Source: Sphaeroforma arctica JP610
Lineage: Eukaryota
Direction: 5' to 3'
Assembly: GCF_001186125.1 (NCBI RefSeq)
Contig: NW_014040418.1
Coordinates: forward strand, 15,688-79,687
Length of the DNA: 64,000 bases
The notes under the pieces were generated by a model. The model was not told the DNA's origin and ran no database searches. It saw nothing but the letters and a program-made list of their open reading frames with translations. A program made the translations under genes and the position numbers. This document shows, piece by piece, positions 2,920-41,433 of this stretch. Position 1 is the first letter of the stretch; every line of letters starts with the position of its first letter.

Positions 2920-3111
2920 ATGAACACAACTGATGCAAAATTTGTCCTGGGGGGAGTGTGTGGACTACTTATCATTATCTGCGTGCTCCTGAACCGGAGA
3001 TTAATATTCAAACGAGGCGAGAAAAGCATCGGTCCAGGTTTGGTGGTACGTTAATAAACATATTTAAATATATATATATATATATATGTAATATATATAT
3101 AGTAGTATATA

Positions 3112-3152
<41 letters not shown>

Positions 3153-3196
3153 TATATATTATATATATATATATGTGTGTGTGTGTGTATATATAA

Positions 3197-3229
<33 letters not shown>

Positions 3230-6161
3230 TATTACATAGACAAACTCGTGTATTTTTTTATTCAACCTATTCTCTATGGCCTTGCATACATGATCAGAGT
3301 TGTACTTACAGTCGTTTCCTCTGCATCTATTGTATCAGATTTGCATGCTGGTGGGCATGTCTACGGACAATCTTAGTGTTTATGACAATGCACATGGTAC
3401 ATATATATGCTCTATACGTGCACATGCACATATTCATATACTTGCACATACACATATTCATATACTATATATATTCATGTACTTGCACATACACATAAAC
3501 ATACATGTGTCATTTTGTACTATCGCATGTACACTTTTAGTAAGCAATCGACACCTACACACAAGCACATGCGCAATCACTCACCCACACGTCCACACAA
3601 ACGTACACACGCACGCATACAAGCCACATACACTCGTACGCACATGCTTCCACATCCACAGTCGCATACACACACATATATACCCACACGCACAGAACAC
3701 TCATACACATACACGCGTTGAAACATACGCCCACACACATATGCTTTCATGTTCACAGGCACACGCACGCACGCACACACAAAATGCTTTTCACAATCAT
3801 ACTCACACTTGCATTGACACATACGCCCACAGGCGAGGGAGACAACGGAGAAGACTCTGTTGCCACCCACCGCACCGGATGTCGATCCCAAAGACGATAA
3901 GCCTCTCCCACCAAAGCCGCCTACTATCAAAAGGTAAGTGACTATTAACAAAGGCCTGCGACTAATATCAAAATAAGTTATATACAAGCATATATATAAG
4001 TTATATACAAGCATATATACATAAATATAAAAGGAAGTTATATAGACATGCATAGATATTAGTCATATTTACAAAAGTCATATATACAGGCCTAATTAAG
4101 TCATATATTCAAGCATATGTATGTTTTTATAAGTTATATATACAAGAATATATGTATGTTAAATGGACAAGAATGTATAAGTCACAGCTCAAAGGATGTA
4201 TAAGTCACAAATACGAGGATATGTAAGTTATATATACAAGGATATGTAAGTTTTATATACAAGGATATGAAAGTTATATATACACGGATATGTAAATTTT
4301 ATATACAAGGACATGTAAGTTGTTCATACAAGGATATGTAAGTTATACATACAAGAATATATAAGTTATGTATACAAGGATATATAAGTTATATATACAA
4401 GGATATGTAAGTTATATATACAAGGATATGTAAGTTATATATACAAGAATATGTAAGTTATATATACAAGGATATGTTAGTTATATATACAAGGATACAT
4501 ATGTTTTGCCCCTGTACTATTACCCGCACACTCTCGTCGTGCACTACTCGCCTTCTAATTGTCACTTTTGTGTGATAAATGCATATGCACGCATGTATAC
4601 ACTCTGTCACGTACGTATGTTCTGTGGCGCAGACGGTGTTGTCTGTTGATGCATGCACGGACATACAAACCTTTGCACATCCACTCGTATATGGCCTGTT
4701 GTATGTGGTAAACAATCCAAACACTTCTCATCCATTCACCCATGCATGTACTACAGCACAACACAGCTCCAGTCACTCGTGTGTGCACAGGATGCATCGC
4801 TTCTCTGATCGAAGGCCTCAGGCTTGTTTTGTGTCACCACTCAACTTGCTTTGATTATGCATAGACACAGTTTACGTGCTTCTTTCATCAACACCTCATG
4901 GCATCATTTGTTGGTTGTGTCACCCCACAGCTTACTTTGATTATGCATAGACACAGTTCACGTGCTTCTTTCACCTACACCTCATCGCATCATTTGTTGC
5001 ACGGTGCAGCTTCGCGTATTATCTCGGCACGGACTCCCCGCAGATCAGAGATGAGCTCAACAAGAAAGTGGACATGGTTATTGTACGCGGCCCAGGAAAA
5101 ATCAGTGGATCAAGGGTACGTACGTCTAACAACTGTGGGTGGGATATGTGGAGAGAGAGCAGGGGTTGTAGCACGTACTTGACAGCTCAACTAGGGCGAG
5201 ATAAGAGAAATGTATATATATATATATATAATACTAGTGTTTATGCGAGTTTCAGATACGTCTCTATATCAGTGTCGGTAGATTGCCAGTATGCCCTGTA
5301 AGTTATATACCTAGACTTCTAGTAAGGCCCGTGCCTACAACCTGCTGGGTTTTAGGCTTTGTGGTCTCGAGGACAATACTTCCAGGTTTCGGGACAATCG
5401 CACCATACACTCACTGTCTCCGGTCAGCAGCTAACCAGGCTCGGGTTTTGGGACAATCGAGTTTTTGAGCATAAAGCTGTCTATACGTTCATATACACGC
5501 CATATAATACTACCCACACAGACCCAAATACACACACACACTACAAGTGCACAGGCACCGCAACAGGCGACTGTACGTGCTGGCGTTGTTATGCCGTCGT
5601 GAAACTCACACATCTCATTGCGTGCGTGAGTGCGTTGCTCACTCACTCACACGTATCTCCATCCGTTGGTGTGTTGTCTGGTTGTTCTCTTGCAGAGCTC
5701 CTCCACTGATGAGAAACCCTCGAGTGAACTCGGCATGCTCCCGGTAAGTCGTGTTAAGCACTTGCCCCGCGACTGTGTGTCTGAGTTGGAGTCCAATTAG
5801 ATCCGCTATGTGTGTGACATAATGTCGTATGATCGTACGACATTTGTCATACACCTGTACGTTGCGGTTTCCCGACTGTTTCCTGTGACATGTGTCTGTG
5901 GGTAAGGGTAATGTTTGAATCGACCACCTGTGTTATATTATTACGTCGTGTTGTCCTACAGCCAGACGGTTACATACGATAAAACAGGTATACTTTTAGT
6001 TAACGGTATCTGCACTTATGTTTGTTACGTCTATATATATATATACATATATATTGTGTATGTATGTATGTATGTATGTATGTACGTATATATGAGTGTA
6101 TGTATCTATATATATATATGATGTAGGTATATATGTATATATATATATATAAATATATATG

Positions 6162-6192
<31 letters not shown>

Positions 6193-7267
6193 GTGTGTGT
6201 TTATGTATGTATGTATGTATATGAAGTTGGTGTATATATATATATATGCAAGTAGAGGGATCTAGTGGTCTAGTTGCTGGTACGCTTGTGTGGGCTACAA
6301 GGTACAGACCTGAATAGACTCTTCTGTGTTGTGACGCGATGGTTGGTTGGTTGGTTGGTTGCACACTACCATCCCTATGATATTGTTCCGGTGGGGCCGA
6401 TTATAGTGGGAAAATAGTTCAGTGTCGAATATTAGTGGCTTGTCCATGAGGCCTACACATGCACGGCACTTGTCAACTGGGACTAAATCGCATTCACTGC
6501 GCAATGCTGTACACCTGACGACTGCCGTATGTGTTTGTAGTCTGACGGGGCCGAGTCACAGCCTAGAACTAATTCTAGTGCGAGATTTAGTGCGAAGCCA
6601 TTAATTGAGTGTACGCACACACAGGAAGGTCCTGCAGGTAAACTAATTCTCAATTACGAATACACACTTTATTTCGCAGGATGGGAACCTGGTGATGCTG
6701 GATAGGTCTACTGTGGTGGAAGACGACAACATGATGTCCTTTCCGAACATCGTGCAGAGCAAACCTAAGGAGAGGGAAAGTATGTAACAGGCGCACTCGC
6801 ACACATAGGCACATGCACACAATAGGTCTGAAGCAAACACATACACATACACACAGGTATATTAAAGCACGTGCACACAATAGGTCTGAAGCAAACACAT
6901 ACACATATACACACAGGTATATTAATGCACACACACACACCCAGATACATTCAGACATACGCCTGGGTATGATTAGGCACAAACCCCTACACACGCACAA
7001 CACTGTATACTGCAAGACATACTCACGCGTAAGCACATGAACGCTTGACGTATCTCGGAGCGTATGCACACACGTAAGCTCATAGATGCATTCAGTACTC
7101 CAGAACACACAATCACTCACATGCGTACACACACCCTCTAAGTGCTTCACAGCACATACACGCACGCGCCACGCATGTGCGAATATATAAATGTATATGT
7201 ATGTATGTATGTATGTATGTATATATATATATGTGTGTGTGTATATACATATATATATATATGTGTG

Positions 7268-7299
<32 letters not shown>

Positions 7300-10200
7300 T
7301 TCATGTGAGAGCATACCTCTGTATAATTCAGCCATATATTTCTTATCCTTGGCACTGCTTCTTACTCACTGTCACACTAATTCACTCACTCACTCCCGCC
7401 CGCAGATGATGTGGATACCATGTTCATTGTGCTGGTTGATCTGATCTCGTTGTCTGCGGAGGAGAAGACAGGCTACGAGAAGCGCTTCAGGAAGAGGCTG
7501 TCGGATTTTTTGAGTAAAACGGGCTCGAACAACTATCAGGTAGGTGGTGTGTAATAATGTTCATGCTCACTCTGCAGAAAGGAACTATCTCTAGTGGACC
7601 TCTATCATCTCAATCTCTGAGCTGTAGGCGCCTTCTCATCTGCGAGTGTGCGTGTAGCTGTATGCCATTAGGAGGCTCTCTCTCCCCTACAAACACACGC
7701 GTTCTGAACGAATTCTAACCTAGTCACCGTTGTCTCTGCAGGGTGTTGTCTTTGGCGGGATCAACGCGTGCACAGGCATTCTGGGTGTGCAGATGGTGGC
7801 TAAGCTCATCCAGTCTGCTAAGCTGCAGTTCCCACAGCACCTGTTCTTCATGGAAGAGGGTGGCTTGGTGTTTGACCACGTGTCAGACTTCGTCAACGGT
7901 AGGTAGAATATGCCTATTTATGGATATCTATTTATAGATGTTTATTTACAGAACGTGTACTCCAAGACCGTGTAGTCGGATACGTAGTTATGGGCATGCT
8001 ATACTGTAGGTAGTATGACACACAAAACACACGCCTCGAAACTGCACAACGACTGCCACAGCCACACATACATGCGCACACATATCCACACGTACACATA
8101 CAGCCACAGCCACACATACATACGCACACACAGCCACACGTACACACAAAACACACGGCCGCGCCTGCATGAACCAGACCCCACAGTCAACCAGGCTCTA
8201 GAGAGTCTACTACAGATCTCTCTCGCGAGTGAGAGCGAGAGAGAGGGGTGTAGGTGCTGTTCTGTGGTGGAGGGTAGATAGGCACATGGGGACTCTGGGC
8301 TGAGAGCATAGGCAACCCTAACCTTACAGCAACACACACTCACATGCACGCTTGTGTGTCTAGTTCAGTGTCTGTCTATGTTGATTGCTGATTGTTGATT
8401 CTATGTCGCGATAGGAGACCGGGGTGTTTATAGACTGTACTGTGTGTATGCTCAGGGATAGGCACCCCACACATTTACACACACAACAACACTGATCACA
8501 TACAAATACTATCTGTCTACTATACCCCTAAATACAAATCATAAACCAAAACCCTAAACCCTAAAACACACACCCACACACCCTCCCACAGGCGTTATCC
8601 TTCTGAACCCAACGCTGGATCCCAGTGGCAAGCTACGTGTGCGTCTGTACGACAAAGAGACGGAGACCTACAACCAGTTTGTAGCCAAGCTCAACACAGA
8701 GATCGCCATCCGCACAGACTTCTTTACGCTCGCGTGTGAGGCTGTGAGAGTGCCGCCGCCTGCGGAGTTGGTGGCGAACTTTGTGTCGTTTACGGAGGGT
8801 ATGTGGGGGGATGTATGGACAGACTGTAGGACAAGTGTTGAAATGTGTAAAAGGGGTGATATGAGGGGTGATTAACATGTTTATAAGGGGTGGTTAATAT
8901 ATGTATAAGGATAAGGGGTGATTAACATATGTATAAGGGGTGATATGAGGGGTGATTAACACATGTATATGGGGTGATATAAGGGGTGATTAACATATTT
9001 ATAAGGGGTGATATGAGGGGGGATTAACATGTGTATAAGAGGTGGTTAATATATGTATAAGGATAAGGGGTGATATGAGGGATGATTAACATGTGTATAA
9101 GGGGTGGTTAATATGTGTATAAGGATAAGGGGTAATTGACATATGTAGAAGGGGTGATTAAAATTTGTAGGCTAGTAACCTTATTAGGTAGCGCTTCTTT
9201 TGGTGACGTTGTTTCCGAGGTACATTGATATGGTGCTAGTGGCACAGTACACACCATTGTTACTCCGTTATATTTATATACTACTCCCACCTGACTCCTC
9301 GCATAAATACAACCCTAACATTGTTCAGGGCTTGGGTTTGTGGGATGGATGACAACTGACGTCACCATGCAGAACACCAATCAAGTGCGTCCGTTGGCTC
9401 TGGATCTGATGCCCGGAGGTCTCCTTGGTAGGTATCCCTCGACCGATGTGCTATAAATAGAACACCCGCTCATCAGGCAATCGATTAATCACATGCACTA
9501 GTTTTTATTGACACCATATCTTCATCAGTCTTTTGTGTATGCTTTCGTGCCCCGTCAGTAGCAGTTTATGAATTATATATATTATACATATTGAATGGCT
9601 CTCATCTAACCTCTGCTTATTTTCCGATGTCCCGTTGGCTCTCGTTTAATTTCTGCGTATTTGTCGATATATCATTGGCTCTCATTTAACCTCCGCGTAC
9701 CTGGCACATTGAACCCCCACGTTCAGGATTGATCGACATCTCGGCTGTGGTCAGTTGCTGTAAGGCAGTGGCGGCTGTGACTAAACAACACTCTCTGGTG
9801 CTACAGGATAGCGTGCCGTCACAGGACTGGGATACCTTTCTCCAAGAGGTATGTTCGTATGCACATGTCTGTGTGGTTTGGTCTACACATGATGCTCATG
9901 TATGTATCATATACATCCGGATGTCTGTGTATGTGTATGGGTGTTTATGCTCATGTATGTATCATATACATCCGGATGTCTGTTTGTGTATATGGGTGTT
10001 TATGCTCATGTATGTATCACATACATCCGGATGCCTGTGTATGTCTGTGTATGTATATGGGTGTTTATGCTCATGTATGTATCATAACCCTTATGCTCAT
10101 GTATGTATCATATACATCCGGATGTCTGTGTATGTCTGTATATATGTATGGGTGTTTATGCTCATGTATGTATCATATACATCCGGATGTCTGTGTATGT

Positions 10201-13200
10201 ATATGGGTGTTTAAGCTCATGTATGTATCATATACATCCGGAAGCCTGTGTATGTCTGTGTATACGTATGGGTGCTTATGATCATGTATGTATCATATAC
10301 ATCCGGATGTCTGTGTATGTCTGTGTCTGTGTATGGGTGTTTATGCTCATGTATGTATCATATACATTCGGATGTCTGTGTATGTCTGTGTGTGTGTTTG
10401 GGTGTTTATGCTCATGTATGTCAGTGTATGTCTGTGTGTGTGTATGGGTGTTTATGCTCATGTATGTATCACATACATCCGGATGTCTGCATAAGTGTAT
10501 GTCTGCGTATGTGTATGGGTGTTTATGCTCATGTATGTATCATATACATCCGGATGTCTGTGTATGTCTGTGTTTGTGTATGGGTGTTTATGCTCATGTA
10601 TGTATCATATACATTCGGATGTATGTGTATGGCTGTGTATGTGTATGGGTGTTTATGCTCATGTATGTATCATATACATTCGGATGTATGTGTATGGCTG
10701 TGTATGTGTATGGCTGTTTATGCTCATGTATGTATCATATACATCCGGATGTCTGCATAAGTGTATGTCTGCGTATGTGTATGGGTGTTTATGCTCATGT
10801 ATGTATCATATACATTCGGATGTCTGTGTATGGGTGTTTATGCCCATGTATGTATCATATACTGTATATGTTTGAGTGTTTATGCACATGTATGTCTGTG
10901 TATGTGTATGGGTGTTTATGCTCATGTATGTATCATATACATTCGGATGTCTGTGTATGTGTTTGGGTGTTTATGCTCATGTATGTCTGTGTATGTGAAT
11001 GGGTGTTTATGCTCATGTAAGTATCATATACATTCGGATGTCTGTGTATGTGTATGGGTGATTGCTCATGTATGTATCATATACAAACGGATGTCTGCAT
11101 AAGTGTATGTCTGTGTATGTGTACGGGTAAGTTCCTGTGCTTTGCTCGCGACGTAACCACTATCACACGCTGGTGCAGTAGCATGACTTTCACTTTCACG
11201 TCTGCGATGCCTAAGCAGACCTGTGTGCGTATGTGTGTGTATTTGGTTACGAATCTTCTAATATGCATATGTATATTCGTTTGGCTACTAATCTTCTTAT
11301 ATGCATATCATATCGAGGTCAACTACACACCCCACTCACCTGCATTCGCCTTCACCTTCGCATTCGTTTTGAACTCCTCTTTATTTGGCCACTATGCAGT
11401 TGGGCATGGACGATGTGATTGAGGACTACTGCCCCGAGATCAAGTTCATTGACCCGGATGTGTGGAGGCTGGATAACGACATGCGCAAAGTGGACAGTCG
11501 GTCCTTTCAGCTTGCACTTGCACCTGTAGATCCGGACTTTCGAGACTGGCCAAGCAATGAGTGCCGAGGTCAACGTCCTGTCGGTGGTATGTGTTGTGTG
11601 GGTGCATCGATGTGTATGTAGACTATATGTCTGTATGTCTGTACATACGGGTGAGCTTATACGGAGCTATTGGTATCGGATATAGTACTTGTGACAGTAA
11701 TAGTATTGTTGTATATGAAGTGTCTGAGGGGTGTATGCGTGCGCATCTGTACGCGTACGGGAGTGCTTCTAAACTGAGACGGGACCTGTTTCCGTTGCAC
11801 AGTAGGTCGTCGGTGCCTCTCGTCTTCAACCGAGTGCGCAGTAGCACGTGTGTACATGTATTCACCTACGTCAAGTGGTTATACCTGGTGTGAGTGTATG
11901 TGTCTTCATATGACTAGCGTCGAGGTGCATTCGACTATCACAGACACGTGTGCTGCCAAGTATACTCATGAACCATCCTTCCTCCGTGTGGTTTCACGTA
12001 TCAAGTGCCATCCATACATCCCCCTCACTCACTCACTCACCCCACCCTACCTGTCTCCGTGCACACACACACACACCACAGAATGGGCGCATGACTTCAA
12101 ACACGAGGACCGTATCCTGGCGTCGCTGAGTTTCCTGCAAGGAGAAGGCCATCTCAAGAACATTGCGGATGTTATTAAGCTGGAGGTAGTGCCTGAGTCA
12201 TTCGACCAGTTTGAAAACAACGTCGTCGATGCGACAGAACCCTCCTTTGACGAGGTGAGTATCTCAGAATAACTACCCACCCAAAGGGTGAATAGAATAG
12301 CCTGTACCCATCTAGGTAGAAAGAAGATATGTATCTGTATATAAAAGTATGAACGTATGTATATATGTATGTACGTATATATATATATATGCATATACAT
12401 ACGCACACACTCACACCCCCAACCCACTCACCCACCACCCGGCAGCTAATCTCTACCCTGGCTGGGCTGCTAGAAGAACCTACGCCCAGTGCACAGAGTT
12501 ATCTGCGCATGTGCAGCCAAACAGCAGTGCAGGAGCTGCATGTGCTTAAGGCTGGCCTCATGCGCAAGGTCATTAAGGTGTTCACAGCCGATAAGACGGT
12601 GTTCTTCTACCAGAACAATGCGGAGGATAATATAAGTATGTGTTTGTGGTGGTATGTGTGTAGGCGATAGATATAGGTGTGTGTGTGTGTAGTATACATG
12701 TAGGAGAGAAGTGTAGGTATGTGTGGGTGTAGCATGTTTGTAGGAGAGAGGTATAGGTGCGTATGTTGTAGTATGTATGTGGGAGATAGGTATAGGTGTG
12801 TGTGTGTGTAGCATGTATGTACCAGGGCACCAACGAGACTATTATACGTTTGCTTTGTTATATAATACTCTTATTCGTACGCATATATCCACATACATGT
12901 AGCACCACATACAACCCCTCACACTAACGCACATATGTAAACACTCACACTCCACACATATGTACACACTCGCACTTCACACATATGTGCACATTCACAT
13001 GTCGTAGCACGGTATCCCATACACCTCTCACACTCCCCCACACCTGTGCCCATTCTCTAACAGACTCTCTGAGCATTGAGCAACAAATCGCTCACCAGTG
13101 GGAACGGGCCAGCCGATTCATGGCAATGTACGAAGACGCAGACCGTCTACTCAACATCTACGTAGCCTCAGACCACCCTAGTGTAGCCGAAGCCACGCTG

Positions 13201-21812: not shown

Positions 21813-21850
<38 letters not shown>

Positions 21851-26705: not shown

Positions 26706-26737
<32 letters not shown>

Positions 26738-32700: not shown

Positions 32701-35700
32701 TCACAATTCTATATTCTATTTATATACCAGCTGCTCATAATTCTGTATTCTATTTATAGACCAGCTGCTCATAATTCTGTATTCTATTTATATACCAGCA
32801 TGTGTTGTCTGACCAGCCGTACGGCGAGTTGCAGCTGAAGGCCAAACGTACGACGGACAATATTGTGAAGCGCAACTTCATTCCGTTGCTACAGCAACTG
32901 ATCTATGGTACGTGTTGTTCTATGTGCCACTGCTTGGGTGACGGTGTGGTTGCGTACGAAGGCCTGTGCGCAGTTAAACACTCTCGTTCACACTTAGCTC
33001 ACACACCTGAGCCTATTTGTATCGTATAATGTCTTGCTTATGAACACCTCTTTCTAAAACATGTGCATGCGCTCTATCTAACACTGTCAATAGCCGTCTG
33101 TTCTGAGGTGTGTATACTGTGTCTGTTCTAAAGTGTTTATAAGCTTAAAACAGCCATCGAGAGGCCCTACCGTCGTCCTATACGCCTGCCGTGCGCAGAT
33201 GTTCTCTTGCACGTACGCACACCAATTAGAGCTGAAAGCATGAGCTGCAAATCACATACTACACCCTACACGCACCTTTCGTGGTATGTTGTACCTTGAC
33301 TTTACACTCACGCCTGTTGACACGCCTCATCTATCTATAACAAACCCCTCAAACCCTTAACGTATCCTATGTATTGCTTCCTACCCCCCCCCCCCCCACT
33401 GCACCTACCAGGGATGAACCAGACGGACTTCAAGCCCTACCACACCACACTGTACGCCAACATGTTTGTGAAGCTGCACCTGTACTTCCAGGAGTTTGAT
33501 TGGCTGACCTCGTGGGACCACGAGTACTCACGCCGTGCATGGTACCGCACATGGTTCCAGGTGCTCAACGACGCCAACAGGGGACGCTTCAACGCCAACC
33601 ACAAGCAGAAGTTTAATAGTATGTGCGGCTACATAGAGAGATGCATATTGATATATATATATATATTGCTGTGTCTGTGTCTATGTCTGTGTCTGTGGTA
33701 GCGTATGGACACTCTGTTTACTTCTGACACTAAAAATCTCCCCCAACACCCGCTCACGCCTACTCACCCTCACCTACCCCTTACCCCCCACAGACCGCCA
33801 GCCAGGGTTTAATGACCCTGATGACGGAGCCGCTGACTACTATCTGCAGTTGGAGATGCCTACGCTGGAGGATCTAGATGCGCTGTATGAGCTGATTGTG
33901 CGTCTGCTCTTCCCCATTGCCGCACGCTTCCCGCGGCTGTCTGTGGTCCATGCCTCCCACCACGGCATCCAGTCTCTGTTGGGAGTTATCTCCAAGACCA
34001 TGTATGTCTGCGTGTGTGTGTGTGTTTGGGTTTTAGCCTCCCACCACGGCATCCAGTCTCTGTTGGGAGTATCTCCCAAGACCATGTATGTCTGCGTGTG
34101 TGTGTGTGTTTTTGCCTCCCACCACGGCATCCAGTCTCTGTTGGGAGTTATCTCCAAGACCATGTATGTCTGCGTGTGTGTGTGTGTGTTTGGGTTTTAG
34201 CCTTCCACCACGGCATCCAGTCTCTGTTGGGAGTTATCTACAAGACCATGTATGTCTGCGTGTGTGTCTGTGTGTGTTTGGGTTTGGGTTGATTCGTAAG
34301 AGTATACCTACATGTTTCTCGGATTCTTGTCTCGTATAAGTAGATTATGTTCCTGCTGTGTCCCGTTGCTTCTTTTTTCACTCGTCTGAGGCGCGTGCCT
34401 CTCCCTACAACCTCTTCACTCTCCTCCCATCCCAGGTACGGTTCCTAAATCCTATACACCTAAAACCCTATACCCTTTACCCTATACACCCCCCTGGCAG
34501 GTACGGTTCGTCCCTGATTATCTGGGATCATGGGGTGTTGTGGCGTGAGCGTCTACTGGCCCTGTCCACTCTACCGCCCCAGGTCATGGCTAAGTTCGTG
34601 CAGATTGGGTTTGTGGGTCTGACGCGCCTTTCGGCGACACTCGCGTACAACGCAGCGAACTGTGTGTGCCCGTGCACTTCTATCCAGAACGTCCAGTGGG
34701 AGGTATGTGGTCGATGATGTGTTTTTACGTGTGCTTGTATGTGTATGTGTGCGTGTGCGTGTACGTGTGTGCATTACATGAGCTGCTGTTGCATGCTGTG
34801 TGTCACAGCCAATTACAAACTAAAGTGAACGCATTCACGCCCTGATACCTACGCATACTTCGTTGTGTGGTATTGATGGGGTGTCTAGGTATTTCAACAC
34901 ACAAAGGATACTATATACATGCACCTACGCCCACTCTCACATGCACACTCATACTCTCTCTCACTCTCACACGCGCACGCATTCGTTTTCTCTCACCCAA
35001 GGCCTATCTTATGTACTGCACACACTCGCTCTCACAACACACATACCCTCTCGCTCGCTCACTCTCTCACCCTCTCACACATTCGTTTTCTTTCTTAAGG
35101 CCTATCTCGGCGGAGGCAAGTACAGCAACGATACGATGGAGCGTATGATCTACCGTAAGATCTCACCCGTGCTCAACGGAATGGATGTGAACCGTTTCCG
35201 TATCGACAAGTCGAAGGAAAAGGACAACCCCACGACCGTGATGCTGTCCCACGTCAATCGTATCAAGGATGTGCTCAACGCCATTGAGGCCGCCGCGGTC
35301 ATCGTGCACGAGTATGTGTGTATCTATGTATGCATTCAATTATATGCATGTGTGTGTATGTCTATACTTTCAAGTACGTACACACATGTGTGTGGGTGTG
35401 TATGTCTTTCAAGTACGTACACATGTGTGTGTGTGTGTGTGTGTCTACATATGCATTATACTATATGCGTGTGTGTGTCTGTGTTTTATATATACTAACA
35501 GACATGTATTTCTTGCCTGCGCTCCGAAATCTTCGTTTACTAAGAATCTCGACCATGACAATCATATCGTCACAGGCGATATCACATACACACATTCCCC
35601 TGTCCTTACCTACTAACTTGCCCCCTCCCGCAGATACGGACTGAAAGAGTACAAGTTGCTGGTGTATGGATCTCTGGACTCGGATCCGTTGTACGCCAAC

Positions 35701-38700
35701 GAGTGTGCCAATGCAATCATTGCGCTTAATTTGGCGGAGAATGCCTTCCTGTGTGGTTTAGGTGAGCGAGAGCACTGCTATTTATAGCTCATGTGCCCCC
35801 TGCCATTCTGGTCCATTGTTAGGGCCAATGTACAGCCTTTTTTCTTTTTTCTTTTTCTTCGGCTGTAGAGTACACACTGTTCTGTTGTGCGGTACATAAA
35901 CCATCCGAACTGCTGTTGTTGTATTAAATTGTGCGGCCTATAGCTCATACCTCACCTACCAATACGCTACCTATACCCTCAGGTAACCCTGCGCTGGTGC
36001 TGCCCCAAGGATGGGTGTTTGTGAACAGTTCGGTATCTGAGGGTCTGCCCTTGGCCATTGGTGAAGCAGGACTCACTGGACTGCCTGTGGTGTGCACGGA
36101 TGTAGGTGGATCTCGAGAGGTAGGTATATGTGGCATTTTACTATACATATATTGGTATATAGTTCATATACTTTCTATACCCTCCGATGCTTGGTACAAT
36201 TTCCCAGAGGAGCAGTACCAGTTACATCCAGCCCAACAAGCCTACGCTGTATTCCTTTAGACTATAGACATCGTCCACACTGTGACTTTCCCTTTGCTAC
36301 TCTTGCTGTGCCTACCTACCTATGCCTACCTGCTTTTTTCAACCTACCTGTCTACCTACAGGTGCTGAGTGACACCACTCCGGGCGAAACCATTGATCCG
36401 CTCATTACTTACGGGCGCATTGTGGCCCCTCGCGCACCCGCCGATCTCGCGCGAGCACAACTGGAGGTATGCGGCGGGAGTACTTTTGGAATGTGTGGAG
36501 CAAGTTGTGGTCTACGCAACATGACTTTTCACACATGCGAATGGACGCACGCGTACGGATATCTTAAGATTGTAATAGTGAATGTTATGTGTGATGTGAT
36601 AGTGTTTGCTATGTATGATGTATTAGTGTGGTGTTCAGTTTCCATGGCTACAACCCGGAGCAGAAGAGCACTATGAGAGCACACGTGGTGCTACAATCGC
36701 AATATGTGCGCGATATTGGCGGTACATGTGTGTGTCTCAGATGTGCATACGGCAGTTACCAGCTGTGCATAAATGACAGTCAGAGGTACACCAACATGAG
36801 CTAGAGCATGCGTAGGAAACCTGTTGCCCTGACAACGCATCACTTCTCTTCTCGTGACAACATGTAGCGACACTGTATATAAATATAAAGGACGGATTTA
36901 GGAAGTATGTACTTATTAATGTCTTTTTATGTATGTGTACCTGGTCCAAAGAATATATTTATTGGTGTCTTACTATGTACCTGGTATGTGCACCTTGTCC
37001 AGATTATGGGACTGTTGGATGGTGTGGAACGAATTGTGGACCCAAAGTACACGGACGACGATGTCAAGCTGGAGGACATCCGACACGACCACTCACAACT
37101 ACTAGGCCGATTAATGGACCCCCGAATCAAGGCCAAAAGGCGGCGCCTGGGGCTGCTACTGCGATCGCGCGTATTCAGGTGACGATGCATTTGATGTTGA
37201 TGTGTATGTGTGTTCCTGTGGGTGGGTGGTATGTGGTGAGCGAGGGTGTATTAGACTTCCAGGAGATATGTGAACATCTCCAGTACACAGGCACTTGTAC
37301 TATCTACACTACGCATTGTCTGCCCCTATTTCAGGTCTGTTAGTAGCCTGTGTGTCCCTCTTAGTCTCCCACCGGTCATGGCTCATCCATCCATCCTTCC
37401 ACACACACCATGTCTACTGTATGCCACACACAATCTTCCATCTTATTCACACGCACCTCCATCTTACACGCACACCTTCCAACTTATACACACATATCTC
37501 CTGTATGATACACACAATCTTTCATCTTACTCACACATGTCTCCTATATAACACTCACATCTTCTCTCGTTCTCACTTTCCTATTCCGCGTATGTACCTT
37601 TTACCTTCGCCTGCAGAGTGTTCCCCATCTCTCGGTACTTGCGTGAGCACGAGCAGCAGATCTGGATCTCTGCGCTGCAGTGTCAGCATTGGGATCTGTG
37701 GCAAATGGTGCAGCGCTTTGTGATGCCCCGAAGGCGTGACCCCAACCGACCGCAGGAGATGCTCGAAGACGGCGAAGATGATATCAGGGACGACGATTTG
37801 TCAGGTGAGGATATGTATCTATATATATATATAAATATAAATTGTATATGTATGTATGTATATATATATATACATACTTGTATACTTGTATACATATGTG
37901 TGCACAATGATTCTGTACCTGTTTTGTATTCGCGTATATAGTTTTCTTCCTCTTTATCGTCCGCCGGAGTTGCTGAACGGCAGTGATGACAATATGAGAC
38001 ACTTTCAGTGAACTGTACACACAGTTTCTGAGCCCCACTCTGTACTCTCGCCCGATGCTATCACCCGGTACCATACCATCTCTCTAATTACTTTGGCTGC
38101 TATATATATATATATATATATATATTCTCCTCTCCCCCACAACCTAGTCTCATTGGCTGATATTTATCCCCAGGTGGTCTCATGGCCTTCACCCACGCCA
38201 CCGCGGCACTGGCGCCCAAGGTGCAGGAGATACGCACAGAGATCCGGTCAGAAAGTACCGAACCTCTAAACCCCCCAGCGGAAGCCGTAGCCCCATCCTC
38301 TACGCCGCCTAAGGTGGCTGCACGCCCACAGTTTCTGCTGGCAGATGCCGACGAAAAGGACCGCGAGGGCATGAAGGTGTGCATGTGCATGTGTTGTTAC
38401 GTATGCATGTGCATGTGTGTTGTTATGTATGCATGTGTATGTGTGTTGTTATGTATGCATGTGCATGTGTTTTTACGTATGCATGTGCATGTGTGTTGTT
38501 ATTTATGCATGTGCATGTGTGTTGTTATTTATGCATGTGTATGTGTGTTGTTATGTATGCATGTGCAAGTGTTGGGGGTTGTGTGTTGTTTTGTATGCAT
38601 GTGCGTGTCCTGGCGTACCCCCTATAGCCACACACCCCACACCCGCACCACGCTTAGCACATATCTATCCCATACACTCAACGTTATTGGACTGTTCTTA

Positions 38701-41433
38701 CATCATGGCCCAGTGTACGCTTAACGTAACAATCTCTCATTGCGCTGTATGTGTTAACTAACTTTAGCATCCGCATGTGCGTGTCACCAAACCACAGACT
38801 ATACAACTGCCCGAGTTGAAGGCCATGAGCAACAACGCAGACACCTCCGAACGCTCGGAAGTCGCGAGAGATGACGGTGAGTCGTTGTTTGTTGTTGTTG
38901 TTTTTTTTCGCTTTGATTGGTGGAATATGTTCTTTTAGTACCGGCTACTCTCTGAGATCGTATAGTATTTGTGATTGTAGTTGAAATGGAGCAATGCGAT
39001 TGGTGGATGTGTTGCGTATGATACTCGATAGTTTGTTTTACCTCGGCATATGTGGTGTGTGAATGTGCCTACCCCTTCGTTACGTACATGCATATGTATA
39101 CATTTACGTTTGATGCAGTGTTTTGTCGGTTATCTTTTTCAGATACTCCACATAATCGTACAAGTGCCAACATGTCTCTGTTTCAGTCTGTGTCAATGCT
39201 ATGAATTCAGCCTCAGTTTGTCGTTGCGCATGGTACACTGTTTTTGTCTTTAGTCTTATTAACTGAATTACTACATCCGCGTATGTTCATGTCCATTGAG
39301 TGAATATTGCATATGTAAGACCTGCATCACACCTACAGATATAAAATCTACATCACACATACAGATATAAAACCTACATCACACATACGGGTATAAAACC
39401 TACATCACACACATTAAGATACTAAACACATACCACACACCTTATGCCACCTTACAGATGACGAGGATGTCTTCTTTAGAAACCTGCCACCCACGCCAGA
39501 GACTTCGAATCCCACCAAGGGCTCTTTTGGCGCTGGAGATTATGGACAAACTGAGTCCAATTTGGAGATCGTGGTGCCTGACAGTCAGAAGAACATTCTG
39601 GGCGATAGATACGGCCCTATCCCCGTGCGCCGCAATACAGCCGTGTTGGTATGTATTGAGGAGCACGGTACGCTAGCGTGTGTTTGTGTACGTGCATGTG
39701 TGAGCATAGACTTGGGTGTGGGTGTCTATGAGCATAAACTTGGGTGTGTGTGAGTGTGTACTTTTATGAGTTGCTATTCCGCTCACTTGTTGCTTCTTTA
39801 TTATGGATCGATATTGGTGGAATTAAAAAGCCGTACTCTATACATACAAGAAACCAGGTTTATTCACACACTCGCATACCTTCTCCTTCGCGACTTAACC
39901 GACAGACGGTAACGGATGTTTCGATGAGCGAAGATGGGGAGGACCAAGTAACGCGCCCGCCAAAGATCGGAGCACCCGTTCTACCTACCGGAGATGCGGA
40001 ATTGGTTGGAGATGTCGACGCAGCACTCTCTGTGGAAAGGCAGAACACCATCATCCAGGCCAAGCAACCTGAGGACGTGTCAGCGCAATTAGGTACGGAT
40101 ATACATATATATATATATATATACATATATATATGCGTGTGGGAGGGGGGGATTAGTTGTTCTAGTATTCATACACTTTAACCCTTTGCGACTTCGATTG
40201 TTCTAGTATGCATACATATTACACTTTGTGACTTCAATTGTTTGAAACGGCATGTTTTTTAATCCGTTGCAACTTTTAAATATCTTCTGCACTCCCAGGA
40301 AACATTGTGGAACGACATCGTCGGCGTAAAACAATCACAGATGTCCAGGGCAGAACCAAGCGAGAGCAGTCATTGGTGGCCAAGACACTCAAGCGAAATG
40401 CGGAACACCAAACACCCTTGGCTATGACGGTATGCTTAGTTCGTTAATGTTTGATTAGTGGGTGACTCTGTATGTGCATCTAGTCAGTTCACTTGCGGGC
40501 CTACTACAACAGATACTGGAGAAGTATGCGTGTTGCTACTTGTATTGTTTCTTGGTAATCGCATTCTCGCTCAATTGTTTGATCTTGTACGGTATATTCT
40601 GCGTATTCGTTCACAAGAAAATCTGAGCCGTGCACACTTCTGCATTGAGAAATATATGTGCCCGTCTCATGCAACACGCACCACCAAATCTTCTAAAAGA
40701 CCATCACGTATCTCACATTGTGACAGTGTAGAATATACACACGATACTCATCGTATAGTGTTCTGTACACGTGCGCCTTCACGTCTAAATCAACTACTGG
40801 TGTGTTACGTTGCAGCTGCGTGAGAAGATACAAAGAGACGAAGAGAAGGCACACCGTAGAGAAAACAAATCGGGTGAAAACCTGCACATTACTCGCACGC
40901 AAAGTCTTGCGCACGAGCCCGCGACTTCCAGGTCTAGCGATCCCGAACGACAGCCAATACCTCCCCGCGACTACGCAAAGGACACTCTACACAGGCACAG
41001 GTAAGTGCGTTGCTAATTTATATTCGTGACACTTTTGAGCGTACGGCATAGGTGTATATATGTATATATTAATACTTAATAATTATGTATATGTAGTATA
41101 TGTGTATGTGGTTATGGGTTTTAAGAATTAGGTATAGGTATAGGTATGTTTGTATGTGTGTGTACTTGTATGTACATGTGCTTGTGTATGTATGTAAGTG
41201 TATATATATATATATATATATATACGTATATACGTATATACGTATATACGTATACATATATATATACTCAGTGTGTATGAGTCCAGGTTCTTATAGTCTG
41301 GGAATTAGTGGTAATCTCTTCTTCTCGCAGTGTTCGCCACAACGCAAAGGAAACATTGTGCAGGCATATTAGTCAGGGGTTCATAAACATATGTAATCAT
41401 GTTTCTTGTTTTATATGTCCAAGGTTGCAATGA
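2920..41433 (+). CDS. Giant 61-exon gene, about 3307 aa: Gtb3-like (galactosaminogalactan/Pel-type) membrane GT4 polysaccharide synthase
   Basis: Hand-spliced exons, all GT-AG, phase-consistent, no internal stop, total 9924 nt: 2920-3045, 3833-3933, 5010-5115, 5696-5743, 6680-6779, 7406-7539, 7742-7898, 8592-8798, 9329-9427, 9727-9848, 11400-11586, 12082-12254, 12446-12635, 13064-13338, 14135-14326, 14705-14895, 15186-15351, 15789-15994, 16917-17075, 17325-17470, 18263-18360, 18612-18773, 19324-19533, 19883-20005, 20534-20705, 21026-21180, 21974-22148, 22424-22619, 23018-23186, 23495-23765, 23966-24222, 24984-25181, 25358-25554, 25736-25891, 26491-26664, 27253-27412, 27693-27848, 28230-28412, 28720-28839, 29226-29401, 29785-29925, 30768-30987, 31761-31903, 32214-32289, 32799-32907, 33412-33618, 33794-34001, 34501-34702, 35100-35311, 35634-35761, 35983-36119, 36362-36466, 37003-37178, 37617-37804, 38174-38376, 38798-38876, 39458-39648, 39906-40092, 40299-40429, 40816-41000, 41331-41433. 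The motifs [68 protein letters not shown] and RYLREHEQ match my recollection of fungal Gtb3-family proteins. Exon 4, the start of exon 36 and the last exon are least certain. Confidence 0.88.
3974..4498. repeat. Intronic ~23-bp minisatellite (aagttatatatacaaggatatgt)
   Basis: Directly visible, most regular from about 4220 to 4498. Confidence 0.85.
8850..9165. repeat. Intronic G-rich minisatellite (aaggggtgatatgaggggtgattaacatgtgtat-like)
   Basis: Multiple imperfect copies after the exon 8 donor. Confidence 0.8.
9890..11110. repeat. Intronic minisatellite, roughly 20 copies of a 50-70-bp unit (gtttatgctcatgtatgtatcatatacatccggatgtctgtgtat...)
   Basis: Directly visible. It generates the spurious C/V/Y/M-rich ORFs at 9859-11102. 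Confidence 0.95.
13657..13915. repeat. Intronic ~85-bp tandem repeat, about 3 copies
   Basis: tgtgtccacgtgactatctaccaa occurs three times. Confidence 0.85.
16275..16665. repeat. Intronic 54-bp tandem repeat (gtgtacagtgtggagtctgctctctcgagtgtaaggagagctacctacatgtta) with shorter variant units
   Basis: Directly visible. It explains the 18-aa periodicity of ORF 16275..16472. Confidence 0.9.
21595..21698. repeat. Intronic 35-bp tandem repeat x3
   Basis: atacgctcgtttatagtcagaagtacttcctaaga is repeated. Confidence 0.85.
30422..30771 (+). repeat. 44-bp x8 tandem repeat whose unit is the exon-42 splice acceptor
   Basis: Unit acactcatacctacctctcccataccccacccaca(c/t)agctacag starts at 30422, 30466, 30510, 30554, 30598, 30642, 30686 and 30730. 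The last copy runs into the exon at 30768. Confidence 0.95.
31298..31770 (+). repeat. ~39-41-bp x12 tandem repeat whose unit is the exon-43 splice acceptor (..ttgtag|gta..)
   Basis: Unit tatcctttccttgtgttgtaggtagtttctcacatacccct. The twelfth copy (31741) is the acceptor that continues the ORF at 31761. Confidence 0.95.
32664..32799 (+). repeat. 34-bp x4 tandem repeat of the exon-45 acceptor
   Basis: tgctcataattctgtattctatttata(g/t)accagc; the AGs end at 32696, 32730, 32764 and 32798. Confidence 0.92.
33952..34280 (+). repeat. Fourfold tandem copy of the last 50 nt of exon 47 plus its donor
   Basis: Copies start at 33952, 34036, 34114 and 34200, with GTATGT donors at 34002, 34086, 34164 and 34250. 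Confidence 0.95.

What the first reader, a model, noticed from the sequence alone, without database searches (positions are those of the whole stretch)
2920..41433. Gtb3-like galactosaminogalactan/Pel synthase in a very intron-dense, apparently non-ascomycete genome
Seen: a complete ~3300-aa hydrolase-like + multi-TM + PelF-like GT4 protein split by 60 introns. Established: alpha-1,4-GalNAc/GalN adhesive polymers are made by bacterial PelF systems and by the fungal uge3-gtb3-ega3-sph3-agd3 cluster, mainly described in filamentous ascomycetes with compact genes. Inference: this organism, possibly a unicellular relative of animals, may make a GAG/Pel-like wall or adhesion polymer. The heavy intron load points to long residence in this genome rather than contamination or recent transfer. 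No epimerase, deacetylase or spherulin partner is visible in the window, so the pathway looks unclustered.
Basis: partly seen in the sequence, partly recalled or inferred. Interest (0 to 1): 0.78.

Follow-up and report, generated by a model that had tools for sequence, protein, structure and literature searches.

The report
Gtb3-type sugar-polymer synthase in Sphaeroforma
A 39-kb, 61-exon gene of Sphaeroforma arctica, a single-celled relative of animals, encodes a full-length relative of the fungal enzyme Gtb3 and likely makes and exports a sticky GalNAc-rich wall polymer, so this machinery is probably much older and more widespread than the moulds in which it was described.

Summary
The + strand gene at 2920-41819 has 61 exons and 60 GT-AG introns. 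It encodes, letter for letter, the 3280-aa protein SARC_02933 of Sphaeroforma arctica JP610, annotated only as hypothetical/DUF3492. Contigs from four runs (kind guessed as RNA) carry the intron-less form with the four junctions tested.

It aligns collinearly over about 2400 residues with the 2893-aa Aspergillus fumigatus protein that I take to be Gtb3 (24% identity, E 2e-153). An ascomycete member of the family lies in an agd3-uge3-sph3 cluster.

Full-length relatives occur in Creolimax, Ichthyophonus, Corallochytrium, chytrids, anaerobic gut fungi and Dikarya. Holozoans form their own branch.

Predicted structures and profiles indicate three modules:
- an N-terminal barrel closest to GH191 and PelA galactosaminidases;
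- a 12-helix MOP/PelG-like membrane domain;
- a PelF-like DUF3492 GT4 domain.

No partner genes are in the window. A published supplement lists 11 Agd3-like proteins in S. arctica. The polymer itself is untested.

This is a new member of a known kind, of moderate to high interest. The scan has met this family before on other DNA (e1-7156563).

The parts
2920..41819 (+). Whole coding region of SARC_02933: 61 exons, 60 GT-AG introns, 3280 codons plus TAG
   Evidence: Exact threading of P0006 onto the window. Intron statistics. Protein name and accessions.
2935..2991 (+). N-terminal hydrophobic segment (aa 6-24), predicted membrane anchor with the N-terminus outside
   Evidence: Hydropathy peak 2.61. 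K+R is 0 before the segment and 6 after it. Not seen in all homologues.
5011..9354 (+). Exons for aa 77-335: predicted (beta/alpha)8 barrel resembling GH191, GH166 (PelA) and TM1410 alpha-galactosaminidases
   Evidence: AlphaFold2 model m4b60329d7072, mean pLDDT 75.7. Foldseek ranks 1-12 are all GH191, TM1410 or PelA, with E 1.6e-4 to 1.1e-3. Conserved acidic residues D97, D254, E294, D300 and E307.
7394..9860 (+). Stretch whose four introns were checked against contigs of sequencing runs
   Evidence: Joints 7536/7739 (cut +3), 7897/8591, 8797/9328 and 9426/9726 (cut +1). The first is present in 3 of 4 runs and the other three in 4 of 4 runs.
11577..15914 (+). Exons for aa 460-900: small alpha/beta domain and long helical region, function unknown, conserved across the family
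   Evidence: Model secondary structure. Conservation profile. Invariant E587, L664, D773, Q774 and E780 in the numbering of the typed fragment; add 60 for protein numbering.
15912..23021 (+). Exons for aa 900-1460: 12 transmembrane helices (6+6) with a cytosolic insert of about 140 aa; MOP/PelG-like exporter module
   Evidence: Model of the Creolimax orthologue (82% identical over this part), pLDDT 78.9. The first 17 Foldseek rows are all MATE, MurJ or Wzx, E 3.3e-3 to 0.07. hhalign to bacterial neighbours of PelF-like genes gives prob 83%, E 8.8e-6.
23022..30984 (+). Exons for aa 1461-2317: central, predicted cytosolic region with no recognised domain
   Evidence: No Pfam hit at E<=1. Conserved collinearly in all groups. 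Not modelled.
30985..37011 (+). Exons for aa 2318-2830: PelF-like GT-B glycosyltransferase (DUF3492 plus Glycos_transf_1), with the EX7E motif E2766-E2774 in exon 35983-36119
   Evidence: Pfam. BLASTP to bacterial DUF3492 GT4 proteins: 26% identity over 513 columns, E 5.6e-41. Motif position.
37687..41816 (+). Exons for aa 2910-3280: poorly conserved, charged C-terminal tail
   Evidence: Conservation profile: gaps of 0.87-1.0 in chytrids.

Best explanation
The + strand gene at 2920-41819 is the S. arctica gene SARC_02933, a full-length member of the Gtb3 family. It is predicted to polymerise UDP-sugars with its C-terminal PelF-like GT4 domain. It likely exports the resulting alpha-linked, GalNAc-rich chain through its own 12-helix MOP/PelG-like membrane domain.

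Shown:
- the exon structure, and the presence of the intron-less form in sequencing runs;
- collinear homology over about 2400 residues with the A. fumigatus protein;
- DUF3492 and GT1 domains over their Pfam cut-offs;
- an intact EX7E motif.

Inferred from models and profiles:
- The protein is a covalent fusion of the three module types that bacteria encode as neighbouring genes. These are a GH114/GH166/GH191-like barrel, a PelG-like exporter and a PelF-like transferase.
- The barrel, the central region and the transferase all face the cytosol.

Inferred from family and partners:
- The product is a galactosaminogalactan/Pel-type polymer.
- After export it would be partly de-N-acetylated by the Agd3-like proteins of this organism.
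- It would serve in the wall or in adhesion of the coenocyte.
For: Gene and expression:
- P0006 threads exactly onto the window as 61 exons.
- Spliced contigs of 10.5-10.7 kb are present in runs of 3 studies.

Family:
- BLASTP against A. fumigatus P0131 (2893 aa, 324 kDa) gives 582/2400 identities, E 2e-153, as one collinear alignment.
- Gtb3 is described as a ~300 kDa transmembrane glycosyltransferase required for GAG (PMC9860509, passages).
- An ascomycete family member, 41-60% identical to Eurotiomycete proteins, lies next to Agd3 (PF25116+PF25115), an epimerase and a Spherulin4 gene on one contig.

GT domain:
- PF11997 scores 49 bits against a cut-off of 23.3.
- PF11997 rings in only 2 of 14 control genomes and 3 of 151 Acidobacteriota genomes.
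- Bacterial DUF3492 GT4 proteins align over nearly their whole length: residues 4-447 to 2318-2829, 26% identity, E 5.6e-41.
- EX7E motif at 2766-2774.

Exporter:
- 12 helices in a model with pLDDT 78.9.
- MOP-superfamily folds fill the first 17 Foldseek rows.
- hhalign to the genes directly downstream of two bacterial DUF3492 GT4 genes gives prob 83%, E 8.8e-6 over 387-402 columns. Reversed-sequence controls give E 0.05-0.34.

Barrel:
- Foldseek ranks 1-12 are GH191, TM1410 and PelA hydrolase domains.

Partners:
- 11 S. arctica proteins are listed as Agd3 BLAST hits in Supplementary file 3 of PMC7229062.
- Two Corallochytrium proteins carry full Agd3_CE domains, at 202 and 219 bits.

Descent:
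- Holozoan, chytrid and Dikarya sequences each form one branch, SH-aLRT 100, on 2406 columns.
Against: - No chemistry is known for the product. GT4 donor and acceptor specificity cannot be read from sequence.
- Identity to the A. fumigatus protein is only 24%.
- That P0131 is Gtb3 (AFUA_3G07860) is inferred from size, architecture and synteny of a relative. The locus tag was not among the 15 of 146 cluster members listed.
- The NCBIfam PelF score (84.8) is under its cut-off (100), and that model also hits ordinary GT4s.
- The exporter fold matches are weak: no Foldseek hit at E<=1e-3, and TM-scores of at most 0.54.
- Pfam PelG is not hit by P0006 at E<=1.
- One bacterial neighbour matches PelG only as a truncated ORF, at 29 bits, and not at full length.
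- The barrel has no sequence-level support. hhalign against 10 bacterial GH114 domains gives prob 4%, E 0.0099. There is no PF03537 hit.
- In S. arctica the column that is D or E in 18 of 25 family members holds M242, with E243 and E244 next to it.
- Loop charges put the barrel in the cytosol. This differs from the extracytoplasmic PelA, Sph3 and Ega3, so its role is unexplained.
- No Sph3, Ega3 or Uge3 homologue of S. arctica could be looked for, because no genome is held.
Confidence: 0.7

Rival explanations
1. It is a true Gtb3-family synthase, but the holozoan/chytrid branch makes a different polymer, such as another hexosamine or a hexose polymer, and not a GalNAc-rich GAG/Pel-type chain.
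For: - The holozoan and chytrid branches are separated from the Dikarya branch by long internal branches (0.95 plus 0.59 changes per column).
- Identity to the A. fumigatus protein is 24%.
- There is no clustering with GAG genes in the window.
- Even for Gtb3 itself the donor specificity is unsettled (PMC9860509, passages).
Against: - Agd3-type deacetylases co-occur with the synthase. They are described as acting on GalNAc stretches of GAG (PMC7229062, passages).
- They are listed or found in S. arctica, in Corallochytrium and in chytrid species that also have the synthase.
- The barrel's nearest folds are galactosaminidases.
Confidence: 0.2
2. It is not a processive exopolysaccharide synthase. 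Instead, the MOP-like domain would flip a lipid-linked sugar, and the GT4 domain would glycosylate a lipid or protein acceptor.
For: The nearest solved folds of the membrane domain include lipid-linked-oligosaccharide flippases (MurJ, WzxE) and drug exporters, with only weak scores. The central 850 residues have no assigned function.
Against: The closest bacterial relatives of both modules are adjacent DUF3492 GT4 and multi-TM genes. Loss of gtb3 abolishes GAG in A. fumigatus (PMC9860509 and preprint 10.64898/2026.06.17.732805, passages).
Confidence: 0.07
3. The gene is a contaminant, a recent horizontal acquisition from a fungus, or a dead copy.
For: The family has been suspected of horizontal spread in fungi (Trichosporon; PMC4817252, passages). 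In my tree, Vanrija nests beside a Sordariomycete. Misplaced copies exist in public bins and in a beetle RefSeq.
Against: - The gene has 60 GT-AG introns with the same microsatellite-rich make-up as the rest of the window.
- The reading frame is intact.
- Full-length spliced contigs are present in runs of 3 studies.
- Orthologues in three other holozoans branch as the species do and lie outside the fungal branches.
Confidence: 0.03

Closest known systems
Aspergillus fumigatus Gtb3 (Gt4c, AFUA_3G07860), the putative transmembrane glycosyltransferase of the galactosaminogalactan cluster
   Same: - Giant single polypeptide: 370 kDa here and 324 kDa for P0131.
- Collinear homology over about 2400 residues.
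- Same order of N-terminal region, TM block at about residues 880-1400, central region and C-terminal GT4.
- Conserved barrel motifs (D97 and the DF..V...E307 motif) also in Dikarya members.
   Different: - 24% identity.
- Not clustered with uge3, sph3, ega3 or agd3 in the window.
- 60 introns.
- A charged tail of about 370 aa that is absent from chytrid members and largely gapped in Dikarya members.
- Host is a holozoan protist, not a fungus.
- That P0131 is Gtb3 is inferred, not read from a locus tag.
Bacterial Pel system modules: PelF (DUF3492 GT4), PelG (exporter), PelA hydrolase domain (GH166) and its GH114/GH191 relatives
   Same: - The GT-B domain aligns end to end with bacterial DUF3492 GT4 proteins.
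- The membrane domain aligns with the multi-TM gene downstream of them.
- The barrel's nearest solved folds are PelA, GH191 and TM1410.
- In bacteria the three modules are neighbours: L018/L041 for GT plus multi-TM, and L019 for barrel-like plus GT.
   Different: - Here the three modules are one polypeptide, with extra helical and central regions.
- No PelB, PelC, PelD or PelE counterparts were recognised.
- The NCBIfam PelF cut-off is not reached.
- The barrel is predicted cytosolic, whereas PelA is described as periplasmic (the PelA location is recalled, not from a call).
Orthologues in other holozoans: Creolimax CFRG7686T1 (P0005), Ichthyophonus Ihof_evm5s159 (P0004), Corallochytrium Clim_evm66s152 (P0007)
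   Same: Full-length collinear alignments at 73%, 51% and 36% identity. They form one branch in the full-length tree.
   Different: They are known only as unnamed gene models. Nothing about them was found in print.
Earlier scan finding e1-7156563: Pel/GAG-type synthase fused to PH and RhoGEF domains in an uncultured marine protist
   Same: Read by that agent as an exporter plus polymerase of the Gtb3 kind.
   Different: It lies in another genome, is intronless, and carries signalling domains that are not seen here. I did not compare the sequences.

Membership tests
Gtb3 family (fungal GAG synthase) | Very large single polypeptide with a multi-pass membrane block and a C-terminal GT4 domain | tested here: met
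   3280 aa, 370 kDa. 10 hydropathy peaks and 12 modelled helices. PF13692, PF00534 and PF11997 over their cut-offs.
Gtb3 family (fungal GAG synthase) | Homology to A. fumigatus Gtb3 that extends outside the GT-B domain | tested here: met
   One alignment of 2400 columns starting at residue 601, E 2e-153. This rests on P0131 being Gtb3, which is inferred from size (324 kDa against the published ~300 kDa) and from synteny of a related ascomycete copy.
Gtb3 family (fungal GAG synthase) | Location in a cluster with uge3, sph3, ega3 and agd3 | tested here: not met
   None of these domains was found in 65 ORFs of the window outside or opposite the gene. Short exons could be missed. The 11 Agd3-like genes in the published supplement carry distant locus tags.
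Gtb3 family (fungal GAG synthase) | Required for synthesis of an alpha-1,4 Gal/GalNAc polymer | not testable with these tools
   This needs genetics and carbohydrate chemistry.
PelF (NCBIfam NF038011; DUF3492 GT4) | DUF3492 N-terminal half plus Glycos_transf_1 C-terminal half | tested here: met
   PF11997 49 bits (cut-off 23.3) and PF13692 48.7 bits. PF11997 is rare in controls: 2 of 14 genomes.
PelF (NCBIfam NF038011; DUF3492 GT4) | Score over the curated equivalog cut-off (100 bits) | tested here: not met
   84.8 bits. It is the best family by 40 bits, but under the cut-off. The model rings in 14 of 14 control genomes under the cut-off.
PelF (NCBIfam NF038011; DUF3492 GT4) | Free-standing protein of about 500 aa encoded in a pel operon | tested here: not met
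   Here the domain is residues 2318-2830 of a 3280-aa protein in an intron-rich eukaryotic gene.
PelG / MOP-superfamily exporters | 12 TM helices in two bundles of six with a MOP fold | tested here: inconclusive
   The 6+6 helix model and MOP folds in the first 17 Foldseek rows support it, but E is 3.3e-3 or worse and TM-scores are at most 0.54.
PelG / MOP-superfamily exporters | Match to Pfam PelG (PF16933) | tested here: not met
   No hit at E<=1 for P0006. Indirect link only: hhalign prob 83% to bacterial genes next to DUF3492 GT4 genes, one of which has a borderline PelG hit that is lost on the full ORF.
GH114 / GH166 / GH191 alpha-galactosaminidase barrels | (beta/alpha)8 barrel of this clan | tested here: inconclusive
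   The predicted fold matches best to this clan (E 1.6e-4, TM-score 0.51-0.59 on the target). There is no sequence support: hhalign prob 4% and no PF03537 hit.
GH114 / GH166 / GH191 alpha-galactosaminidase barrels | Catalytic Asp and Glu at strand ends about 58-69 residues apart (pairs listed in PMC12054363, passages) | tested here: inconclusive
   E307 is E in 23 and D in 2 of 25 sequences. The column 65 residues upstream is D or E in 18 of 25 but M in S. arctica, with E243 and E244 adjacent. No residue-level superposition was possible.

The most novel reading that the evidence does not exclude
The GAG/Pel-type synthase is an ancient opisthokont invention: a single-chain fusion of a pel-like operon (galactosaminidase-like barrel, PelG-like exporter, PelF-like transferase). 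It was present before animals and fungi split, and was kept by walled lineages such as ichthyosporeans, Corallochytrium, chytrids and some Dikarya. Ichthyosporeans build or glue their coenocyte wall with a partly deacetylated alpha-1,4-GalNAc polymer made by SARC_02933 and trimmed by an expanded set of Agd3-like enzymes. The Pezizomycotina 'cluster' is then a late regrouping of old genes, not a bacterial import.
Probability: 0.35. Interest if true: 0.75.

Novelty: new member of a known kind. Interest (0 to 1): 0.6.

Why it matters
In the passages I read, GAG is treated as a trait of Pezizomycotina plus one basidiomycete, possibly acquired by transfer (PMC4817252, PMC8224951). Agd3 homologues were later noted in chytrids and bacteria (PMC7229062).

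A full-length, expressed, intron-laden Gtb3 orthologue in a close relative of animals changes that picture. Orthologues across Ichthyosporea and Corallochytrium branch outside the fungi. Together these move the likely origin of the synthase to the base of the opisthokonts. They also give a concrete candidate for a wall or adhesion polymer of ichthyosporeans. My searches turned up nothing on the chemistry of that wall.

The module reading (barrel + PelG-like + PelF-like) applies to fungal Gtb3 too. A 2023 review says its structure had not yet been modelled because of its size (PMC9860509). The reading offers testable residues: E2766 and E2774 of the EX7E motif, and E307 of the barrel.

Tried and rejected
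- Pfam on 139 raw + strand ORFs found only one exon over a cut-off, the GT1 exon at 35928-36257. Four other hits were at chance level, E about 0.008-0.01.
- A profile search of the PDB by sequence gave nothing significant: 4 rows, best E 0.14.
- Barrel against bacterial GH114 by hhalign was not significant: prob 4.2%, E 0.0099.
- Pfam PelG in 151 Acidobacteriota genomes: 0 of 151 at E<=1e-10. PelG on the full bacterial neighbour ORFs: no hit.
One call on P0001 residues 1-400 gave no usable hit.
- The VIA-align second look was never run. The machine was busy.
- The genome-contig scan gave no genuine full-length bacterial homologue. Its two long matches are eukaryotic contigs inside prokaryote bins.
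- The look-up of sequencing runs: no RNA holder listed. All run kinds are guesses.
- The representative search with an Agd3_CE exon lists no names. S. arctica proteins were not among the 10 of 150 hits that I looked up. The S. arctica Agd3 claim therefore rests on the published supplement alone.
- The window's own genome is not held, so Sph3, Ega3 and Uge3 could not be sought.
- The bacterial root of the GT tree sits on a very long branch (3.1). Corallochytrium's place there is unstable: holozoan monophyly appears in 12% of bootstrap trees and is not rejected by the AU test, p 0.33. I draw no rooting conclusion from it.
- Supplements not opened that may bear on family distribution: Table S1 and Fig. 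S5 of PMC4817252, and S1 Table of PMC8224951.


Full report
**1. What is in the window**

The window is eukaryotic. No genome is held for it. It has one 20-N gap at 55812-55831.

Raw ORF scanning of the + strand gave a single Pfam hit over a cut-off. It is a GT4 (Glycos_transf_1) exon in ORF 35928-36257 (1 of 139 ORFs). Reading 34800-36700 showed short exons bounded by canonical GT..AG sites. The introns are full of TG/CA and TA microsatellites.

A 70-aa exon (35100-35309) recovered a 1115-aa protein labelled Zophobas morio, with PF11997, PF00534 and PF13692. That protein maps by tblastn to 27681-37737 in about 20 pieces.

Searching longer proteins with it gave 59 hits at E<=1e-10 among 2739 candidates. 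The top hits were 3100-3300-aa proteins of Ichthyophonus, Creolimax, Sphaeroforma arctica and Corallochytrium. Neocallimastigomycota, many chytrids, Pezizomycotina and Vanrija followed.

**2. The gene**

P0006 is SARC_02933 of S. arctica JP610 (XP_014158753.1). It is named only 'hypothetical protein' or 'DUF3492 domain-containing protein'. It threads letter for letter onto the window as follows:
- 61 exons, 2920-41816, followed by TAG;
- 9840 coding bases;
- 60 of 60 introns GT..AG, median 409.5 nt;
- intron phases 29/16/15 (phases 0/1/2);
- exon GC 0.543 against intron GC 0.415.

My own exon-chaining model, trained on 16 tblastn seeds, gave 65 exons and 3408 aa. It agrees for most exons but differs at both ends and at a few boundaries.

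Contigs of four runs from three studies cover only the exons of 7394-9860. They carry the annotated junctions, not my alternatives, with no differing letters. Two of these contigs are 10,655 and 10,504 nt long. The record positions imply roughly 400 nt beyond each end of the annotated CDS. This is my arithmetic, and so an inference.

The run kinds are only guessed to be RNA. An intron-less form is most simply mRNA. Only 4 of 60 introns were checked.

**3. Family membership**

P0006 aligns collinearly with every family member:
- Creolimax: 73% identity over residues 49-3275;
- Ichthyophonus: 51%;
- Corallochytrium: 36%;
- chytrids: from about residue 236 to 2906;
- Dikarya: in two collinear blocks, about 600-1700 and 2120-2910.

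A search from a Dothideomycete member found 439 proteins at E<=1e-60, of which 120 are listed. Among them is an A. fumigatus cluster of 146 sequences (P0131, 2893 aa). P0006 against P0131 gives one alignment of 2400 columns, 24% identity, E 2e-153, starting at residue 601.

[quoted passage not shown] P0131 weighs 324 kDa. The AFUA_3G07860 tag was not among the 15 members listed, so the equation P0131 = Gtb3 is an inference.

Synteny strengthens it. A 95-kb contig (G152:C58) is filed in a 'Deltaproteobacteria' bin but carries HET, multicopper-oxidase and sugar-transporter genes. It holds, in order:
- Agd3 (PF25116+PF25115), 21.2-23.5 kb;
- an NAD epimerase, 25.6-26.9 kb;
- a Spherulin4 gene, 29.1-29.8 kb;
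- a family member 41-60% identical to Eurotiomycete proteins, 31.3-40 kb.

So the Dikarya branch of this family is the GAG-cluster synthase.

**4. Architecture**

*(a) GT domain*
- PF11997 (2514-2626), PF13692 and PF00534 (2667-2828) are all over their cut-offs.
- In Ichthyophonus the DUF3492 match spans model positions 6-265.
- Two bacterial DUF3492 GT4 proteins of about 490 aa align from residue 4 to 447 with P0006 residues 2318-2829 (26% identity, E 5.6e-41).
- PF11997 is a discriminating domain. It rings in 2 of 14 control genomes (Deinococcus, Thermotoga) and 3 of 151 Acidobacteriota genomes.
- The NCBIfam PelF model is the best bacterial family for P0006 (84.8 bits, next best 44.9). It is under its 100-bit cut-off. 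It also hits ordinary GT4s (92.9 bits for L003) and 14 of 14 controls. On its own it proves little.
- An EX7E motif lies at E2766-E2774. That this motif marks retaining GT4 enzymes is recalled, not tested.

*(b) Membrane domain*
- Hydropathy gives peaks between 903 and 1434.
- An AlphaFold2 model of the Creolimax orthologue residues 801-1500 is 82% identical to P0006 over this part (mean pLDDT 78.9, pTM 0.72).
- It shows 12 long helices arranged 6+6, with an insert of about 140 aa after helix 6.
- Foldseek finds nothing at E<=1e-3. Even so, the first 17 rows listed are all MATE, MurJ or WzxE transporters of the MOP superfamily (E 3.3e-3 to 0.07, TM-score up to 0.54).
- In the box, a profile of this domain aligned with the two genes directly downstream of bacterial DUF3492 GT4 genes. 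The result was prob 83%, E 8.8e-6, over 387-402 columns.
- That alignment spans nearly the whole domain. It treats the eukaryotic insert as a gap and pairs the ...GWMYFF.IFIDRW... motif.
- Reversed sequences gave E 0.05-0.34, and three unrelated neighbours gave E 0.17-0.48.
- One of those bacterial genes matched Pfam PelG at 29 bits as a truncated ORF, but not at full length. 'PelG-like' is therefore likely, not shown.

*(c) N-terminal region*
- A model of P0006 residues 61-900 has mean pLDDT 75.7, built from 25 sequences.
- It has eight strand-helix repeats between about residues 77 and 335. A small alpha/beta domain and a long helical region follow.
- Foldseek ranks 1-12 are exclusively GH191 alpha-galactosaminidases (9euz, 9eux, 9ep5), TM1410 (2aam) and PelA hydrolase domains (9cgy, 5tcb, 5tsy). 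E is 1.6e-4 to 1.1e-3, and the TM-score on the target is 0.51-0.59 for the single-domain targets and 0.20 for full-length PelA 9cgy. Generic barrels come after them.
- These are the enzymes that cut Pel and GAG (PMC12054363, passages).
- Sequence profiles do not confirm the link.
- E307 sits at a strand end and is acidic in 25 of 25 sequences. The column 65 residues upstream is D or E in 18 of 25, but M in Sphaeroforma and Creolimax, with E243 and E244 adjacent.
- The published catalytic Asp...Glu pairs are spaced 58-69 residues apart. Activity is open.

*(d) Central region and tail*
- Residues 1461-2317 and the tail 2910-3280 have no recognised domain.

**5. Topology (inferred)**

Loop charges alternate. 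K+R counts are 1, 3, 0, 3 and 2 in the five short loops, 14 in the first 60 residues after helix 6, and 6 after the N-terminal segment. With 12 helices, this puts the N-terminal 25-900 region, the insert and the C-terminal transferase all in the cytosol.

A cytosolic galactosaminidase-like barrel is unexpected. The known members act outside the membrane. I cannot explain it. A role in binding, priming or trimming the nascent chain is only a guess.

**6. Bacterial context**

In the three Acidobacteriota loci with DUF3492 GT4 genes:
- two are followed by the multi-TM gene used above (L018/L041, L020/L042);
- one is preceded by a barrel-like gene with sub-cut-off GHL15 and GH114 matches (L019).

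GH114, DUF3492 and PelG models all ring in Thermotoga among the controls.

So the three module types that are separate neighbouring genes in bacteria are one chain in opisthokonts. I saw no such description of Gtb3 in the passages read.

**7. Distribution and descent**

On 2406 columns of 33 full-length proteins (LG+G4, quick search), three sets each form one side of a branch with SH-aLRT 100:
- Corallochytrium plus three ichthyosporeans;
- 16 chytrid or Neocallimastigomycota sequences;
- 13 Dikarya sequences.

Inside the holozoan branch the order is Corallochytrium, Ichthyophonus, then Sphaeroforma with Creolimax.

On the GT region alone I used 54 rows in a careful search and left out L018. 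The ichthyosporean branch, including the Zophobas-labelled protein, has support 100/98. Corallochytrium floats, and holozoan monophyly is not rejected (AU p 0.33). The bacterial root is on a very long branch and is not trusted.

This pattern fits vertical descent from an early opisthokont with many losses. It does not exclude an ancient transfer between early holozoans and fungi.

**8. Partners**

Nothing of the GAG set is in the window. Among the 65 ORFs scanned, hits were only these:
- a Dam-like fragment, 44085-44309 (-);
- RVT_2, 46750-47594 (-);
- rve, 51352-52062 (+);
- RVT_1, 54011-54298 (-).

Supplementary file 3 of PMC7229062 lists 11 S. arctica JP610 proteins among Agd3 BLAST hits. 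They show 22-26% identity and E 4e-37 to 4e-19, and their locus tags are far from SARC_02933. The main text speaks only of fungi and bacteria.

My own search with an Agd3_CE exon found 440 representatives at E<=1e-3. Of the 10 that I looked up:
- 2 are Corallochytrium proteins with full Agd3_CE domains (202 and 219 bits);
- 4 come from chytrid species or strains that also have the synthase;
- 1 is labelled as a green alga;
- 3 are unnamed.

S. arctica itself was not among those 10.

**9. In print**

- No paper in the library holds both 'galactosaminogalactan' and 'ichthyospore...' (0 papers).
- None names SARC_02933 or XP_014158753.
- 15 papers hold 'galactosaminogalactan' and 'chytrid'. The one I read in passages reports Agd3 homologues in Chytridiomycota.
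- The scan itself met a Gtb3-like synthase before, in another genome (e1-7156563).

**10. Verdict**

The gene is already annotated as a hypothetical protein. What is new is its identification as a Gtb3-family synthase in a relative of animals, together with the module reading. The product and the barrel's role are untested.

Noticed in passing
P0001 (maps to window 27681-37737 by tblastn): A RefSeq protein labelled Zophobas morio (LOC135146429, 1115 aa, on a 395-kb contig) is 59% identical to the C-terminal third of SARC_02933. It groups inside the ichthyosporean branch (100/98). It likely comes from a gut-dwelling ichthyosporean in the beetle sample, or from a transfer.
   Followed up: partly
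L002 / G152:C58 (95-kb contig), L001: Two 'prokaryotic' bins hold eukaryotic contigs. A Deltaproteobacteria-labelled bin has an ascomycete contig with HET, multicopper oxidase, MFS and a whole agd3-epimerase-sph3-gtb3 cluster. A Methanosphaera-labelled bin has a Neocallimastigomycota-like Gtb3 gene, 60% identical to P0012.
   Followed up: yes
L018/L041, L020/L042, L019: Bacterial DUF3492 GT4 genes are followed by a multi-TM gene that aligns with the eukaryotic membrane domain. In one case they are preceded by a GHL15/GH114-like barrel gene. These are the same three modules that are fused in the eukaryotic protein. The PelG Pfam hit on the truncated ORF (29 bits) disappears on the full ORF.
   Followed up: partly
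window 5011-9354 (aa 77-335): Loop charges and the 12-helix count put the galactosaminidase-like barrel in the cytosol, on the same side as the transferase. Known enzymes of that clan work outside the membrane. No explanation is offered.
   Followed up: partly
window 9849-11399: The longest intron (1551 nt) is a long imperfect tandem array. It translates as repeated ...[12 protein letters not shown]... units in three frames, with GC skew +0.21 and AT skew -0.29 over 10001-12000. Many other introns carry TG/CA or TA microsatellites.
   Followed up: no
window 44085-44309 (-), 46750-47594 (-), 51352-52062 (+), 54011-54298 (-): Downstream of the gene lie a Dam-like N6-adenine methyltransferase fragment and pieces of at least two retroelements (RVT_2, integrase core, RVT_1). 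There is a 20-N gap at 55812-55831. Long minus-strand ORFs at 56.5-62.2 kb have no Pfam match.
   Followed up: partly
P0313: A 785-aa protein labelled as a MAG of the green alga Monoraphidium minutum carries a full Agd3_CE domain (226 bits) and a weak CBM87 match.
   Followed up: no
window 2323-2919 and 41373-41819: My de novo model proposes extra upstream exons (2323-2419, 2493-2538) and a different last exon (41297-41372). The 10.6-kb contigs imply about 400 nt beyond each end of the annotated CDS, so the UTR exons and the 19-nt last exon remain unchecked.
   Followed up: no
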